64,000 nt of DNA from Carcharhinus amblyrhynchos. Its lineage: Eukaryota. This document shows, in pieces, positions 12,001 to 18,000 of the stretch (position 1 is the stretch's first letter; every line of letters starts with the position of its first letter). The stretch spans positions 17,980,001 through 18,044,000 of the forward strand of contig OZ336890.1 in assembly GCA_965287045.1 (NCBI GenBank), given 5' to 3'. The position numbers were made by a program.

Positions 12001-15000
12001 TTGTCTAGAAATGTAACACGGAAAGCGGAGTGGACTGTCGCTGTTTTTAATCTCTCTCCTGCTATTCTTGCTGCTGTCAATGAGAATCTAAAGACTGAAC
12101 ATTGTAATGAGTATCCGTTAGCCGGTTTGGGAATAACCATAATTCGTAATCAACCCCTCTCTGGGGGACTGCAAGTTATGCTTTCAAAAAATATAAAGTG
12201 GACATTACCTTTGTTTAGGTTTAGGCTCCTGAGGATCTGTCAAGTCCATGGATATAACATATGCAATCCGAAAAAGGCTGTGGATGAAACCTATTGTTTT
12301 TCTTAAAAATCCCATTGCGACCCTTCTCCAGAACATGGTTTAAAAAAAAAGACTAATCTTTTCCAGCCTGGAAGTCAACCCGCCACCTTTTGAAAGGGTA
12401 GTTCCTTTAACAAGAAAGTGAATCGAGATGGAAAACGGTTTTAAGAGTGAGAGCGTTTCACTTTGTGTGTCCCACATGTGGGCCAGTGGTTCTCTGCACA
12501 AGAGTGTTTTACAGCGGAAAGTGCAACATGAGGGAACCAGATCCGCAAACAAGTTCAAACTCAAGCCGGCAAGAAGGTGAGGAGAGAGGATAGCTTGACC
12601 TGAGGCAGGTTGTGTATTTAATATATTGACTGTTGTTGCTGGGGGAAGGGGGTGGTGGTCAAAACTTTCAACAGAGGAGCCTCTGACAGCAGAAGTAACA
12701 GTGAGTAATTTTCTAATGACCACTTCTGACAGTAACTACATTGAATTCCTTACTCTTAACTCTCTATCCTCGATGTAATCGAACTTCAAGAACGAGGCCC
12801 TAAAACTGTTGCAAAACTTGATTCAAATATACTCCCCTCCGCAAAGAAAGGCGGAAGGGAGTGTGTTTGAACCTTTGTTAAGATTTGGGATCCAGTGACA
12901 GTCTAATGTGATTTATACAAAAAAGAATTTTGTGGCCTAGGGAAAAAAAAGCAGGCCCAATTTCAGACTGTGACCCCAGTTAGTGGGAGCCTCGAAGGGA
13001 TTTGCAAAGCAGATTAGACCCAGGTTGAATGACAGTGCTTCATATAACTTTCTGAGAATTCACCCGGGGGGCTGCAGGGAGCGTGGGGAGGGGTGGGGGG
13101 GGCACTCACCCCCATCCATCTACAGATGTCATATTTATTTTCAAATGATGAACTTTTGCCAAAGGGTAAAGTGTTAAATTAGGCGTGAAGTGTGATTGAT
13201 GAGGGAAGGCGAACACTTTCACAAATTCCAGGGATATCTTTTGACAGAATCACCAGCGAAAAAGCAGTCAGGGGGCTGGGGGTAGAGAGTGGAGGTGGGG
13301 GGTTAGGCAGCCGGAGTTGTCTGTTTAAGGACATAGCTGGAATAGCTTCAATCAGGCTGTGTTCTTGCTTGCGAATTTTATTTGAAAGCTGTTTTTTTAA
13401 TAAAAACGTTTACTAAAAATCGGGGAGGAAATCGTCCCCCTTTTTTTATCTAATTCAAATTCGAGAAGAAATGGCAAGATGTTTTCCAATGCTTATTGGA
13501 AATCGCCTGTATCAGTCTCAGGGCAAATGCTGTCTTCTCCGCCAAGCTAACATCATTCTTATCCCTGCAACCTTCCCCCAGATCCGCACTTCAGCCCAAC
13601 TTTTTTTTATTTGACTGATATTAGATAATAAATAGCCCAGTGATCTGGATATTTGAAAAGGTTGGGATTTACTGAGCAAGCTGAAGGGTTGACAGCTAAA
13701 TCTGCAGTGTTCAAACACAGGCTGGAAGTTTATGGCAAACAAGTTGTTCTGTAACACTAGCAAGAAGGGATTCAGTGAAACAAGCCGTGGCGAATGCTCC
13801 AAAAAGTTCTCTGGAGATTGAGTGATGGAATTTGTAATTAGCTGCTGTAGTGGGCGCTGTGCTTTTTTTTATGATGGCCACTGACATAGTAATTTAATAC
13901 CAGGAAAGTTGGAAAGTGTTTTGAAGGGAGAGAGTGATTATGGAAAGCAGAGTTCACCGATCTGGGGCACTGAGCAGATGGGGATGTGGAAGCGGCTGGA
14001 AGTGACTTACAGAAACGGCCCAGCGAGCAGCAGCTGATAAGGATGGCGAGGAGTGCGAGTGGCCCATTCAGCTGCTGAAAGCTCCAGCTTTCGGGGTCGG
14101 GTGGGAGAACACCTCCAGAGGGCTCGGATGCCTTAAATCCCCGCCTGGGAATTTAACCCCCGGCAGCAGCAGCAGCAGCAATAAGGATGAGCCACCTTCC
14201 AGCTGAAGGGAACGTGTCTGCCTCCCCAGTGGATGCTGGGTTTAATTTGGGGGCTGCAGCCAACAGATCCGGGGGGCTGTGGGCGACCAACGACACCCAG
14301 GACTTTGAGGATGGGGCGGCCTCCAGTATATACGACGTCCTGATCCCCAGCCTGTACTGCCTGGTGTGTGTGCTGGGGCTGGGCGGCAATTCCTTGGTCA
14401 TCTTCAGCATCGTGCACCAGGCCAGGGCCAGGAGCGTGGCCAACATTTACATCCTCAACCTGGCCCTGGCGGATGGCCTCTTCATGCTGGGACTTCCTTT
14501 CCTCGCCATGCAGATCGCCCTCCGCCGCTGGCCCTTTGGAGGATTCATGTGCAGGTTGGTTATGATCTTGGATGGCATCAACCAGTTCACCAGTGTCTTC
14601 TGTATCACCGTGATGAGCATCGACAGGTACCTGGCTGTGGTGCACCCAGTCAGATCTTCCAGGTGGCGCAGCCCCAGGCTGGCAAAGAGAGTGAGTGCCA
14701 TCCTCTGGGTGATCTCCTTCATCCCTGTCATCCCCATGGCCATTTACTCAGGCGTGGATGGTGCTTCAGATGTCTGTACTTTAATCTGGCCAGAGCCTGT
14801 CTTTCTCTGGTCCACCGCCTTCATCATCTACACTTTTGTGCTGGGCTTCGCCCTGCCTTTTGCCATCATCTCCCTGTGCCACATTGTGCTGCTGCTGAGG
14901 ATAAAGAGTGCCCTCCTCTCCCCCCACAGCAGCCAGTCCCACAGCTCCGAGAGGAAAGTCACCACCATGGTGGTGGCCATCGTGCTGGCTTTCGCTACCT

Positions 15001-18000
15001 GCTGGCTGCCTTTCTACACCATCAACATCTGTGCCCTCTTCCAACCCATTCCAGAGAGCTTCACTGTCAGGAGATTCTTCGAGTTCATGGTGGTCCTCTC
15101 CTACTTCAACAGCTGCGCCAACCCCATTCTCTACATCTGCCTGTCAGACACTTGCTGGAGAAGCTGCCAGATGTTGCTGTGCCCCAGGTCGGTGCTGAGG
15201 AAGAAGGCCCTGGGGGAGAGGAGGCTGGAGGAGCATCAGATGCAAGGTCTGACCGAGTCCCAGCTCACTGCCTCTGCTGCGGAGCTAGAGAGTGTGTTCA
15301 GATAATGCCACCTTCTCCTGGAGGCAACCTATCCTCTCCTGCAGGAAGCCCAACCACTCCTGCCCACACATTCCTGCCCACCCTCTCTGGAATGAAGCCC
15401 ACCCCCTCCTACAGGAAGCCCACCCTCCCCAAGCCCACCTTCTCCGGAATGAAGCCCACCCTCTCCTGCCCACTCTTTCCCGTAGGGAGCCCACCCTCTC
15501 ATGCCTACCCTCTCCTGTAAGGAGCCCACTCCTGTCTACCCTCTCATGCCCACCCTCTTTAGAAGGAAGCCCACCCTCCCCAGCCCACCCCCTCCTGCCT
15601 ATCCTTTCCAGCCCATCCTCTTTTGAAGGAAGCCCACCCTCTCCAGGAGGCAGTTGCTCCAGACCGATGGATGTTCGAGAAATGGATTTTCAGTCTCTGG
15701 GACCTTTCAGTGATTTTATGCCATGAGCTGCGGAGCCATCGCCTGTCTAATACAAACTTTGGGTCGAATTGGTTCGACAACAACATTCACTGGGCATTCT
15801 CTCTATAAACTGTTGTTTCCCCCCCCCCAACCCCGCAGTAGAAAGGTGTTAAATGTTAAACGAATCGAAACAGTTTATATTCTTGAGCTAATCTGGGGCA
15901 AGATTCAAGCAGCGACTGAACAACTTGGTGCATCAACAATCGGTTGATGTTGGAGCTAGTCACAGTGTGTGTCTGTAATAATACCACAGGATGTAGGTTA
16001 CAGCAATTGAAAGATTGCAGGTGACGAGGGGAGAGTTGGTTATATCGCGCCTTGTTAATCTCGCTCACAAGACTGCAATGTGATTCAGGTACAGTGAATT
16101 GTTTTGTTCGGTGTCGGTTGAAGTGTTTTAAAACCATTATTTGCAGGGTAAAGTTCGGCGCAGTGAAAATACAGATTCACAACAGTCCGAATGAGGGAAG
16201 TGGCGGATTCTGGACAACTCTTCACTGGAGTCATGATCTGTGAAAGGGTTAAATCTTGAACTTGTATCAGTCCAAGCTATTTACTGGCGCGGTGCATGCG
16301 GGTTGGGGGGGGGGGGGGGAGTGTGGATTTATAAGTATTCGTGGCTTTTTCTCCACTCTGTGCGTTGACTCACAGTTGAGCCGGTGGCAATGTAACGCTG
16401 CAGCTATTCCATCTCCCCCCTGTCTGTCCCTGGTCAGGTGAATTCCTGTTGGAAATTTACTATAAAGCTCGAATTCTGTGAATATACATTAAGCAAGCCT
16501 TGTAAACTTCTCTATAAACATTAAACAACGTTCATTGTATAAAGCTGCACTTTGTTCCCGCATTTTCATTCTCCAATTTTAACAATTATCACATCTTTTG
16601 CAAACACACTCTCTGCCCATTCATTGTACCAGCCAAACTTTGCTCTGTCTCTCTCTCTCCAACTAGGGAAAGCACGAATCCATTTCGAAATACGGAGTTG
16701 GTTCATGCTGCCACAGTGCAGGAGCGAAGCTTTGGGCGAAATTTCTTATCCTGCCCGTATCATTAATAATGATAGGATCATAGAAATTTTACAGTACAGA
16801 AAGAGGCCATTCGGCCCATCGAATCTGCACCGACTACAATCCCACCCAAGCCCTACCCCTAAATATTTACCCACTAATCCACACATCAGGACAATTTTAG
16901 CTTAGCCAATCAACCTAACCCACATCATTGAACTGTGGAAGGAAACCCACGCAGACACGAGGAGAATGTACAAACTCCACTCAGACAGTGACCCAAGCCA
17001 GGAAGCGAACCCAGGTCCCTGGAACCGTGAAGCAGCAGTGCTAACCACTGTGCTACCGTGCCCGCCTGTAACAACGCTCCTCCAAAACCTCACACACTTC
17101 CAACAACCATTTTCCAAAAGCTCACACACTTTCCCTGCCGCGCCAGTTGAGAAATCTGCTCCATGAACGACTTTTGTTTGACATCGCACTATTTTTAGAA
17201 AATCCTAGATCATCTCCCCGGACAGACAGAACCCACCCAGAGAGGGAATTCTGTGCTCCGACGAGCGTGACACTCCTTTATTCACGACAAGGTTATTCGC
17301 ACAAGTAGATGTAACCGTCCCCATGAGTAAATTGCATCCCATTGTCGCCTGCTTTTCAGTGCTGTGAATGTTATCCGAGTGAACAGGGAGTGGAGGCCCT
17401 GGAGGATCAGCACCCAAGCTGCTAAACTACATTTCACCCGTCCCCTGCACCTCATCGATATCATAACAGCGGTGTAAGGTTGTGTAAAAACATTCTGTTG
17501 AAACATAGTTCCTGCCAATGGACAGTCAGAACTCAAAAGTGGAATAAATATTGGGCTTTGGGCCTGTTTTGAAGGATCTGAGTTTGGGCTCATCAGATTA
17601 ATTCAGAAAATTAAAACAATTTGAACTTGTTTAAATTATCGATTCCTTAAGTAAAATGGTAGTGCACATTCATAAAGAAGAAGTAAGTCTACTGGTGTAA
17701 TCTCATTTCATCTGTAGGTTGATATATTATGTTCCACTTGCTTAGACAATGATTAGTTTTCTTATCCCTAGCTCTTCCATCAACCTCCTAATGTCAAACT
17801 CAGGACAATAATCAGCCTGATCTGTGTAATTGTCTCTGATTGACTGGCTATATTGTCTTCAACGTTGTCCCAAAATATTCCGAGTAGGTGATGATTGGCT
17901 TTTCTATTAGATTGAATTCATGATCTAACGACAAGAGAACACACAGCAGGCATCTAATCAAGTTCAATCTGAAATACGGGAAGGGTGTGGAGCCGGATTC

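What the first reader, a model, noticed from the sequence alone, without database searches (positions are those of the whole stretch)
14187..15305. Extra, intact, highly diverged somatostatin receptor in tandem with SSTR2
Seen: a complete 372-aa class A GPCR with SSTR2/3/5-type signatures ([25 protein letters not shown]) between SLC39A11 and SSTR2, in the same orientation as SSTR2. Its termini and loops do not align with SSTR2, so the duplication is old. Established: mammals have only SSTR2 next to SLC39A11, and the usual vertebrate repertoire is SSTR1-6. My recollection, which needs verifying, is that an extra SSTR2-linked receptor ('SSTRX') was reported in coelacanth. Inference: this may be a seventh ancient jawed-vertebrate SSTR subtype, formed by local duplication before the shark/bony-fish split and lost in mammals.
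Basis: partly seen in the sequence, partly recalled or inferred. Interest (0 to 1): 0.8.

Follow-up and report, generated by a model that had tools for sequence, protein, structure and literature searches.

The report
Seventh somatostatin-type receptor beside shark SSTR2
Next to the shark's SSTR2 gene sits an intact extra somatostatin-type receptor gene that sharks, rays, chimaeras, coelacanth, sturgeons and teleosts all share but no land vertebrate in my searches, so it is an old, partly overlooked and functionally untested receptor type rather than a new kind of gene.

Summary
The 372-aa single-exon ORF at 14187..15305 (+) is real: a full-length class A GPCR. It lies 29.6 kb upstream of a clear SSTR2 orthologue at 44861..45988, in the same orientation. 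SLC39A11 could not be found in the window.

The protein is not SSTR2, SSTR3 or SSTR5. It belongs to a separate clade (support 100/100) holding 12 cartilaginous-fish rows, coelacanth, sturgeon and paddlefish, bowfin and teleosts, and the branching inside the clade follows the species tree. Pairing it directly with SSTR3 or SSTR5 is rejected (p-AU 0.005-0.019; 0.0075). Whether it is sister to SSTR2 (best tree, 94/83) or branches outside SSTR2/3/5 is unresolved.

It keeps the somatostatin-pocket residues and all activation motifs, so it is most likely a working receptor for a somatostatin-family peptide.

The gene has already been reported piecemeal: coelacanth 'SSTRX', a table entry 'SSTR7', and gar/teleost 'sstr2-like'. 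No dN/dS, shark RNA data or ligand test was possible here.

The parts
14187..15305 (+). Single-exon coding sequence (372 aa plus stop) of the extra somatostatin-type receptor, here called X (= SSTRX / 'SSTR7' / sstr2-like clade)
   Evidence: ORF. Pfam 7tm_1 E 2.8e-63, full length. Best solved-structure matches are SSTR2 333, SSTR5 329 and SSTR3 319 bits. 98% identical to an NCBI model from Mustelus asterias of the same length. The AF2 model has seven TM helices plus helix 8. GC3 is 0.78.
14154..14156 (+). In-frame TAA upstream of the start codon. It fixes ATG 14187 as the first usable start, with A at -3. A (CAG)n run lies between the two.
   Evidence: Stop-to-stop ORF starts at 14157; sequence read.
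44861..45988 (+). Single-exon coding sequence (375 aa plus stop) of the SSTR2 orthologue, the tandem neighbour 29.6 kb downstream
   Evidence: ORF. 577 bits to human SSTR2 chains against 419 for SSTR5. 94% identical to Cetorhinus 'SSTR2-like'. Inside the SSTR2 clade at 99/99. Pfam 7tm_1 E 7.8e-75.

Best explanation
The ORF is the shark orthologue of a seventh somatostatin-receptor lineage within the SSTR2/3/5 subfamily. It is the same gene as coelacanth 'SSTRX', the 'SSTR7' of one review table, and the gar/teleost 'sstr2-like'.

Origin. It arose by a tandem duplication at the SSTR2 locus before cartilaginous and bony fishes split. It has stayed immediately upstream of SSTR2 in the same orientation. 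It evolves about 2.4 times faster than SSTR2 but under purifying selection. No tetrapod copy appeared in my searches.

Mechanism (inferred, not shown). It is a seven-helix peptide receptor. Its pocket still has the residues that hold the Trp-Lys core of somatostatin in SSTR2: Asp3.32, Gln3.36, Phe5.38, Phe6.51, Asn6.55, Tyr7.43, Gln2.63 and the ECL2 Trp. It would therefore bind a somatostatin-family peptide (sharks have five prosomatostatin genes) and signal through the usual DRY/CWxP/NPxxY switch, most likely to Gi/o.

Its third intracellular loop lacks the basic cluster of SSTR2. In this shark and M. asterias alone, Tyr5.58 is His. Coupling strength or partner may therefore differ.
For: Shown:
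- Intact full-length ORF and GPCR fold. Foldseek top hits are SSTR2 structures (7xmr_R, E 6.4e-21, TMt 0.87).
- A sharp score gap. Sixteen rows, P0001-P0016, score 811-388 bits: sharks, rays, chimaera, coelacanth, sturgeons and paddlefish. The SSTR5/SSTR3 rows follow at about 360 bits or less.
- Careful ML tree, 59 rows x 383 columns, LG+C20+F+G4 by PMSF. The X clade of 25 rows has support 100/100. Inside it, Chondrichthyes split from (Latimeria,(Chondrostei,(Amia,teleosts))). SSTR2 99/99, SSTR3 100/99, SSTR5 91/81.
- Sharks also have SSTR3- and SSTR5-type genes. P0100 scores 473 bits to SSTR3; P0044 scores 492 bits to SSTR5.
- X paired with SSTR3 or SSTR5 is rejected.
- Linkage. X and SSTR2 report the same longest-contig length in 6 of 6 species where both rows give one. 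Locus tags are adjacent in Dallia and Albula, and both genes share one 77,953-bp contig in Genypterus. The coelacanth pair lies 20 kb apart in the same orientation. Gar and teleost sstr2-like lies beside sstr2.
- Constraint. D2.50, DRY, P5.50, CWxP, NPxxY and both disulfide Cys are kept in 24-25 of 25 X rows. The pocket residues D3.32, Q3.36, F6.51, N6.55 and Y7.43 are kept in 25 of 25. The 9 differences from M. asterias all lie in the N-terminal segment, ECL2 or the C-tail.
- Rate. Identity of window X to Callorhinchus X is 63.0%, against 77.9% for SSTR2. Path lengths are about 1.09 against 0.45 substitutions per site.
- A teleost orthologue is transcribed: tilapia sstr2-like in intestine. 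That this gene equals the X clade is inferred from its length and position, not checked by sequence.

Recalled, not from a call: which SSTR2 residues contact somatostatin.
Against: - No ligand, coupling or expression data exist for any cartilaginous-fish copy.
- No coding DNA from other species was available, so dN/dS was not computed.
- The stem of the X clade is long (about 1.3-1.5 substitutions per site), so function may have shifted.
- X-specific changes sit near the pocket: Gly for Glu at human position 90 (24 of 25 rows), Met at 4.60, and no Tyr at 5.35.
- His at Tyr5.58 in this lineage, and the loss of basic residues in ICL3, could weaken G-protein activation.
- Sister relation. X+SSTR2 has 94/83 with all rows but only 64/28 once the ten fast neopterygian rows are removed. 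A placement outside SSTR2/3/5 is not rejected (p-AU 0.377; 0.59; 0.31).
- Only two SSTR1/4/6-type outgroup rows were usable, and both are unnamed.
- Absence from tetrapods rests on hit lists that show only the best 120 rows.
Confidence: 0.75

Rival explanations
1. Older origin. X and the ancestor of SSTR2/3/5 were already a tandem pair before the two early vertebrate genome duplications, as the 'SSTR 7' pre-2R progenitor of the PMC5207463 table implies. The copies beside SSTR3 and SSTR5 were then lost.
For: FastTree put X outside (SSTR2,(SSTR3,SSTR5)) with local support 93. The constrained tree with SSTR2+3+5 together is only 3.36 lnL worse, p-AU 0.377. This backbone is 0.32 lnL worse under LG+F+G4, p-AU 0.59, and 1.54 worse under LG+C20+F+G4, p-AU 0.31. 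The table lists SSTR7 under its own pre-2R progenitor.
Against: The best trees under both models join X to SSTR2. Long-branch attraction between the X stem and the outgroup stem would favour exactly this rival, and its support is highest under the simpler models. It needs at least two extra gene losses. Signature columns are tied 1 to 1. The paper behind the table (Yun et al. 2015) was not held, so its evidence is unseen.
Confidence: 0.3
2. X is a fast-evolving orthologue of SSTR5 or SSTR3, as NCBI's automatic names 'somatostatin receptor type 5-like' suggest.
For: The names given by the source. Scores to human SSTR5 (329 bits) and SSTR2 (333 bits) are nearly equal. treekit's AU tests of X+SSTR5 and of X+SSTR3 were each only marginal (dlnL 18.8, p 0.066).
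Against: Elasmobranchs have separate SSTR3- and SSTR5-type genes. All six backbones pairing X with SSTR5 or SSTR3 are rejected under LG+F+G4 (p-AU 0.005-0.019), and the two such backbones tested under LG+C20+F+G4 are also rejected (p-AU 0.0075). X is linked to SSTR2, not to SSTR3 or SSTR5.
Confidence: 0.02
3. X is a lineage-specific, fast-evolving duplicate of SSTR2, as Ocampo Daza et al. proposed for coelacanth SSTRX.
For: The tandem position and same orientation. The best tree makes X sister to SSTR2.
Against: The X clade contains cartilaginous and bony fishes and mirrors the species tree. All SSTR2 orthologues of the same species form their own clade at 99/99. The duplication therefore predates the split.
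Confidence: 0.01
4. In this shark lineage the gene is a decaying or silent relic, despite its open frame.
For: His replaces the nearly universal Tyr5.58 only in the window and M. asterias, 2 of 25 rows. ICL3 has lost its basic cluster. There is no shark expression evidence. X evolves faster than SSTR2.
Against: The frame is open over 372 codons. GC3 is 0.78. All other switches and pocket residues are intact. None of the 9 differences from M. asterias falls in a TM helix.
Confidence: 0.1
5. X is a working receptor whose natural ligand is no longer a somatostatin. It could be another cyclic peptide such as urotensin II or URP, or an unknown peptide, or X could act mainly as a modulating partner of SSTR2.
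For: The long stem of the clade. Clade-specific changes lie at the pocket rim: human positions 90, 177 and 205. Actinopterygian copies have lost the ECL2 Trp, which is Pro in 8 of 10 neopterygian rows.
Against: In the 15 cartilaginous-fish, coelacanth and chondrostean rows, the core pocket is unchanged in every row: D3.32, Q3.36, F5.38, F6.51, N6.55, Y7.43, F7.35 and Q2.63. Q3.36 and N6.55 are the SSTR2/3/5 states, not the outgroup's M and Q.
Confidence: 0.2

Closest known systems
Coelacanth 'SSTRX' (Ocampo Daza et al. 2012, PMC3560075; passages read, supplement not seen)
   Same: An extra SSTR2-like gene on the same scaffold as SSTR2, 20 kb away and in the same orientation. It was placed at the base of the SSTR2 cluster. 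The only extra Latimeria row (P0013, 63% identical to window X) falls in the X clade and shares SSTR2's contig.
   Different: The paper read it as a coelacanth-specific fast duplicate. Here the gene is shared with cartilaginous fishes and ray-finned fishes. That P0013 is the paper's SSTRX is inferred, not checked by accession.
Gar/teleost 'sstr2-like' (PMC11224465, passages read; expression in PMC12428277, passages read)
   Same: A single-exon gene that is the closest neighbour of sstr2, in a block that also holds slc39a11 (printed as slc39a1). The roughly 340-aa teleost and bowfin proteins form the actinopterygian part of the X clade.
   Different: Teleost copies are shorter at the N-terminus, sit on a stem of 1.0 substitutions per site, and have lost the ECL2 Trp. 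The paper dates the duplication to the actinopterygian ancestor, says the protein has six TM segments and suggests it may be decaying. In alignment A1 all seven TM segments of the teleost rows align.
'SSTR7' in Table 1 of Furlong & Seong 2017 (PMC5207463, table and passages read), citing Yun et al. 2015 (not held)
   Same: A seventh SSTR listed apart from SSTR1/4/6 and SSTR2/3/5.
   Different: The text I could read gives no sequence, species or map position, so equating it with X is an inference. The table implies a pre-2R origin, which my tests neither support nor reject. A different 'SSTR7' named in topmouth culter (Dong et al. 2018, cited in PMC9576932) could not be read.
SSTR2 (human structures 7WIC, 7XMR, 7T10 and others)
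   Same: The same fold (TMt 0.87-0.91). 48% identity to the window's own SSTR2. The pocket core, the Thr at human position 194 and Phe7.35 are shared.
   Different: X lies outside the SSTR2 orthologue clade (99/99). It differs in Gly for Glu90, Met for Ile4.60 and no Tyr5.35, has an ICL3 without the basic cluster, and has different termini.
SSTR5 and SSTR3
   Same: The same subfamily. Scores are similar (329 and 319 bits). Automatic names call many X orthologues 'type 5-like'.
   Different: Direct pairing is rejected. Sharks have their own SSTR3- and SSTR5-type genes on other contigs.

Membership tests
Class A (rhodopsin-like) GPCR | Seven transmembrane helices matching Pfam PF00001 over its whole length | tested here: met
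   7tm_1 E 2.8e-63, profile positions 1-260 of 260. The AF2 model has seven TM helices plus helix 8.
Class A (rhodopsin-like) GPCR | Activation motifs D2.50, DRY, P5.50, CWxP and NPxxY, the TM3-ECL2 disulfide cysteines, and Tyr5.58 | tested here: inconclusive
   All are present in window X except Tyr5.58, which is His232. The other 23 X rows have Tyr (22) or Phe (1) there.
Somatostatin receptor family | Closest relatives by sequence and fold are somatostatin receptors | tested here: met
   All five human SSTR types outrank opioid receptors (333-268 bits against 216). Foldseek's top hits are SSTR2.
Somatostatin receptor family | TM7 signature [11 protein letters not shown] (motif recalled, not from a call) | tested here: met
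   Window X has [11 protein letters not shown], 10 of 11 positions. The window's SSTR2 has [11 protein letters not shown].
Somatostatin receptor family | Binds and is activated by somatostatin or cortistatin peptides | not testable with these tools
   Only pocket conservation was checked.
SSTR2/3/5 subfamily | Groups with SSTR2/3/5 against SSTR1/4/6-type receptors, and shares their pocket states | tested here: met
   The outgroup split has 100/99 support. Q3.36 and N6.55 match SSTR2/3/5, where the outgroup has M and Q. Six to eight columns unite X with SSTR2/3/5.
SSTR2 orthologues | Falls inside the clade of SSTR2 genes from sharks to mammals | tested here: not met
   The SSTR2 clade of 16 rows excludes X at 99/99. 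The window has its own SSTR2.
SSTR5 or SSTR3 orthologues | Falls inside or directly beside the SSTR5 or SSTR3 clade | tested here: not met
   p-AU 0.005-0.019 and 0.0075. treekit's two tests were marginal (p 0.066).
SSTRX / 'SSTR7' / sstr2-like lineage | Monophyletic with the coelacanth and actinopterygian extra receptors | tested here: met
   Clade of 25 rows at 100/100, with the species-tree order inside. It is 100/100 again without the neopterygian rows.
SSTRX / 'SSTR7' / sstr2-like lineage | Lies immediately beside SSTR2 in the same orientation, with a single coding exon | tested here: met
   In the window, X is at 14187..15305 (+) and SSTR2 at 44861..45988 (+), with no other gene-like ORF between them. 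The same holds in other species.
SSTRX / 'SSTR7' / sstr2-like lineage | SLC39A11 on the far side | tested here: inconclusive
   No Zip-family match among the 293 ORFs of window 1..14100. Only a paper's gene map for gar and teleosts shows it.

The most novel reading that the evidence does not exclude
X is an ancestral jawed-vertebrate receptor with its own cognate ligand among the 'extra' somatostatin genes that sharks and teleosts keep (PSST3, PSST5, PSST6). Receptor and ligand were then lost together on the way to tetrapods. If X instead predates the two genome duplications, the proto-vertebrate already had three somatostatin-receptor genes rather than two.
Probability: 0.2. Interest if true: 0.6.

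Novelty: new member of a known kind. Interest (0 to 1): 0.45.

Why it matters
Textbook accounts, and a 2019 catshark preprint, count six vertebrate somatostatin receptor types. This window, together with the trees, shows that one further type has stayed beside SSTR2 since before sharks and bony fishes split. It is currently hidden under the names 'type 2-like', 'type 5-like', 'SSTRX', 'sstr2-like' and probably 'SSTR7'.

Treating these as one orthologous group would do three things:
- correct the annotation;
- overturn the two published readings of the gene as lineage-specific (coelacanth-only, or actinopterygian-only);
- define an untested receptor to match against the five shark prosomatostatin peptides.

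It does not reveal a new kind of system.

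Tried and rejected
- SLC39A11 search. Pfam on all 293 ORFs of at least 30 aa in 1..14100 gave no Zip hit. One weakly membrane-like ORF (2761-2967, minus strand) was translated and is not a transporter exon.
I labelled candidates by solved-structure searches instead.
- Two of those representatives (P0246, P0249) proved nearly identical to human SSTR4 and SSTR1 chains. Because they may be human, they were dropped from every later analysis. That left only two outgroup rows (P0240, P0251).
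- Signature-column counting to settle X+SSTR2 against X-outside gave 1 column each.
Five backbones were then evaluated.
- A first backbone file was malformed and crashed IQ-TREE. It was corrected.
- treekit's X+SSTR3 test returned the same numbers as its X+SSTR5 test. In one search the two backbones also have equal likelihood, so both probably collapse to the same polytomy.
- Rfam and tRNA scans of the window found nothing.
- Yun et al. 2015 and Dong et al. 2018 are not held.
- Not used: complex prediction (no candidate partner of suitable size) and the protein-atlas search (the family is known).

Full report
**Source of the window.** The window is not human. Both receptor proteins have their closest relatives in sharks: 98% to Mustelus asterias and 94% to Cetorhinus maximus. 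Both gene models are single open reading frames, so no spliced model had to be joined. One run of N lies between the two genes and was left alone.

**The observation.**
- The ORF listing gives one ATG-to-stop ORF at exactly 14187..15305 (+), 372 aa.
- The frame is closed by TAA at 14154-14156, so 14187 is the first possible start. It has A at -3 and follows a short CAG run.
- Pfam's 7tm_1 model matches end to end, E 2.8e-63.
- Three N-x-S/T sequons (N9, N26, N35) lie in the N-terminal segment (read).
- GC3 is 0.78 against 0.45-0.48 GC in the flanks.
- An AlphaFold2 model built on 23 orthologues has mean pLDDT 68.7, with 76-91 in most of the helical core. It shows seven helices, an ECL2 hairpin and helix 8. 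Its best structural matches are SSTR2 entries.
- The second receptor ORF, 44861..45988 (+), is an unambiguous SSTR2 orthologue.
- Between the two genes I found only tandem repeats and reverse-transcriptase fragments.
- SLC39A11 was not found. None of 293 ORFs upstream matched a Zip model.

**What the protein is related to.**
- Against solved structures it scores almost equally to human SSTR2, SSTR5 and SSTR3 (333, 329 and 319 bits). It scores lower to SSTR1 and SSTR4 (278, 268) and lower still to opioid receptors (216). It is therefore no clear orthologue of any human type.
- It is 48% identical to the window's SSTR2.
- In the 5.8-billion-protein search, the first 16 rows drop from 811 to 388 bits. 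They are all from sharks, rays, a sawfish, a chimaera, the coelacanth, two sturgeons and a paddlefish. One of the 16 is an unnamed skate-like row. Ordinary SSTR5 and SSTR3 rows follow at about 360 bits or less.
- Two further, very divergent carpet-shark-like rows (P0017, P0034) also belong to this group.
- In a quick tree, three unnamed representatives from the exhaustive HMMER search fell into the same group. Searching with one of them showed it to be a roughly 340-aa receptor found throughout teleosts and in bowfin, named 'type 2' or 'type 5' at random by the sources.
- No tetrapod row appeared in this group in any list. Each list shows only its best 120 or 150 rows.

**Phylogeny.** I used 59 rows:
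- 25 X rows;
- 16 SSTR2 rows;
- 8 SSTR3-type rows;
- 8 SSTR5-type rows;
- 2 SSTR1/4/6-type outgroup rows.

I left out all unnamed 'lgn' rows, the synthetic constructs, and two representatives that may be human.

| Test | Result |
|---|---|
| Careful IQ-TREE, LG+C20+F+G4 by PMSF | X 100/100; SSTR2 99/99; SSTR3 100/99; SSTR5 91/81; (SSTR3,SSTR5) 97/91; X+SSTR2 94/83 |
| Same, without the ten fast neopterygian X rows | X still 100/100; X+SSTR2 falls to 64/28 |
| treekit AU, X outside SSTR2/3/5 | Not rejected: dlnL 3.36, p 0.377 |
| treekit AU, X+SSTR5 and X+SSTR3 | Marginal: dlnL 18.8, p 0.066 each |
| All 15 backbones of the five groups, LG+F+G4 | 12 excluded at p-AU < 0.05, including every direct pairing of X with SSTR3 or SSTR5 (0.005-0.019) |
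| Five backbones, LG+C20+F+G4 | See below |

- Inside X the order is Chondrichthyes (chimaera, then elasmobranchs) against Latimeria, then sturgeon and paddlefish, then bowfin and teleosts. This is the species tree.
- The three backbones that survive all keep SSTR3+SSTR5 together. They are X+SSTR2 (best), X outside (dlnL 0.32) and X with SSTR3+SSTR5 (dlnL 1.87).
- Under the C20 mixture the same three survive, with p-AU 0.83, 0.31 and 0.16. The two pairings of X with SSTR5 or SSTR3 that were tested are rejected at 0.0075.
- Signature columns are tied 1 to 1.
- In sum, the separate and ancient status of X is robust. Its exact sister is not resolved.

**Linkage.**
- X and SSTR2 report the same longest-contig length in 6 of 6 species where both rows give one: Cetorhinus, Heterodontus, Heptranchias, Callorhinchus, Rhinoraja and Latimeria.
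- In teleosts, the locus tags are adjacent in Dallia and Albula and five apart in Danionella.
- The two genes share one 78-kb contig in Genypterus.
- The literature gives a 20-kb spacing and the same orientation in coelacanth. It also describes 'sstr2-like' as the closest gene to sstr2 in gar.

**Function (inferred).** Human numbering comes from the alignment to chain 7wic_R. Which residues contact somatostatin is my recollection of the SSTR2 cryo-EM papers, not a tool result.
- Window X keeps Y1.39, Q2.63, D3.32, Q3.36, the ECL2 Trp, F5.38, T5.42, F6.51, N6.55, F7.35 and Y7.43.
- D3.32, Q3.36, F6.51, N6.55 and Y7.43 are unchanged in 25 of 25 X rows.
- Q3.36 and N6.55 are the SSTR2/3/5 states. 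The outgroup has M and Q there.
- Clade-specific changes are Gly for Glu at human position 90, Met at 4.60, and no Tyr at 5.35.
- DRY, CWxP, NPxxY, D2.50 and P5.50 are each kept in at least 24 of 25 rows. Both disulfide cysteines and the helix-8 Cys are kept in all 25.
- The window's ICL3 lacks the Arg/Lys cluster of SSTR2.
- The window and M. asterias alone have His at Tyr5.58.
- X diverges faster than SSTR2: 63.0% against 77.9% identity to the chimaera orthologues. Even so, the nine differences from M. asterias avoid the helices.

**Literature.**
- Ocampo Daza et al. 2012 (passages read, supplement not seen) named coelacanth SSTRX and judged it lineage-specific.
- Furlong & Seong 2017 (table and passages read) list 'SSTR7' under its own pre-2R progenitor, citing Yun et al. 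2015, which is not held.
- The 2024 tilapia paper (passages read) describes gar/teleost sstr2-like. It dates the gene to the actinopterygian ancestor and suspects decay.
- A 2025 paper (passages read) reports that tilapia sstr2-like transcript levels change with salinity in intestine.
- A catshark preprint (passages read) still counts six receptor types.
- Full-text searches found no paper applying these names to a cartilaginous-fish gene. The searches were sstr7 (5 papers), SSTRX (2 papers), sstr2-like and variants (11 papers), and SSTR plus shark terms (15 of 440 listed). This shows only that I found none in that library.

**Verdict.** The gene is a shark member of an already glimpsed but poorly recognised seventh SSTR lineage.

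**Still open:** the order of the duplication relative to 2R, dN/dS, shark expression, the ligand, and the SLC39A11 flank.

Noticed in passing
window 14880-14882 (codon 232 of X): His replaces the near-universal class A microswitch Tyr5.58 in the window and in Mustelus asterias only, 2 of 25 X rows. The other 23 rows have Tyr (22) or Phe (1).
   Followed up: partly
window 15315-15646: Directly after the stop codon of X lies a block of 14-, 21-, 35- and 63-bp tandem repeats built on GCCCACCCTCTC-like units. It gives long shadow ORFs in other frames.
   Followed up: no
window 39279-39861, 40836-41061, 41851-42232, 42805-43100: The last 6 kb before SSTR2 is rich in satellites: CT-rich 16/34-bp arrays, AC-rich 26-86-bp arrays that run into the N stretch, and a clean 20-bp x 15 array about 1.8 kb upstream of the SSTR2 start.
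   Followed up: no
window 10177-10512 (-), 28956-29393 (+), 59834-60475 (+); related ORFs at 25008-25667, 29290-30162 and 60645-61115: Reverse-transcriptase (RVT_1) fragments of LINE-like elements, E 1.9e-12 to 1.3e-13. The neighbouring long ORFs have no Pfam match but share sequence motifs with each other.
   Followed up: partly
alignment A1; proteins P0489, P0379, P0406, P0385, P0381, P0393, P0454, P0380: Bowfin and teleost orthologues of X sit on a stem of 1.0 substitutions per site. They have lost the ECL2 Trp (Pro in 8 of 10 rows) and have Trp at 5.35 (9 of 10 rows). All seven TM segments align, which disagrees with the six TM segments reported for tilapia.
   Followed up: partly
proteins P0243 and P0379 (Megalops cyprinoides): Tarpon has two copies of X. 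One is on the contig that also holds an SSTR2 copy; the other is on the contig holding an SSTR3-type gene. This fits retention of both teleost-duplication copies.
   Followed up: no
proteins P0017 (Chiloscyllium punctatum) and P0034: The carpet-shark-type X rows are far more divergent than those of other sharks (shared stem 0.86 in the quick tree; odd amino-acid make-up). The cause could be fast evolution or poor gene models.
   Followed up: no
window 61925-62764 (-): A 279-aa stop-to-stop ORF with no Pfam match. It is probably chance or a repeat.
   Followed up: partly
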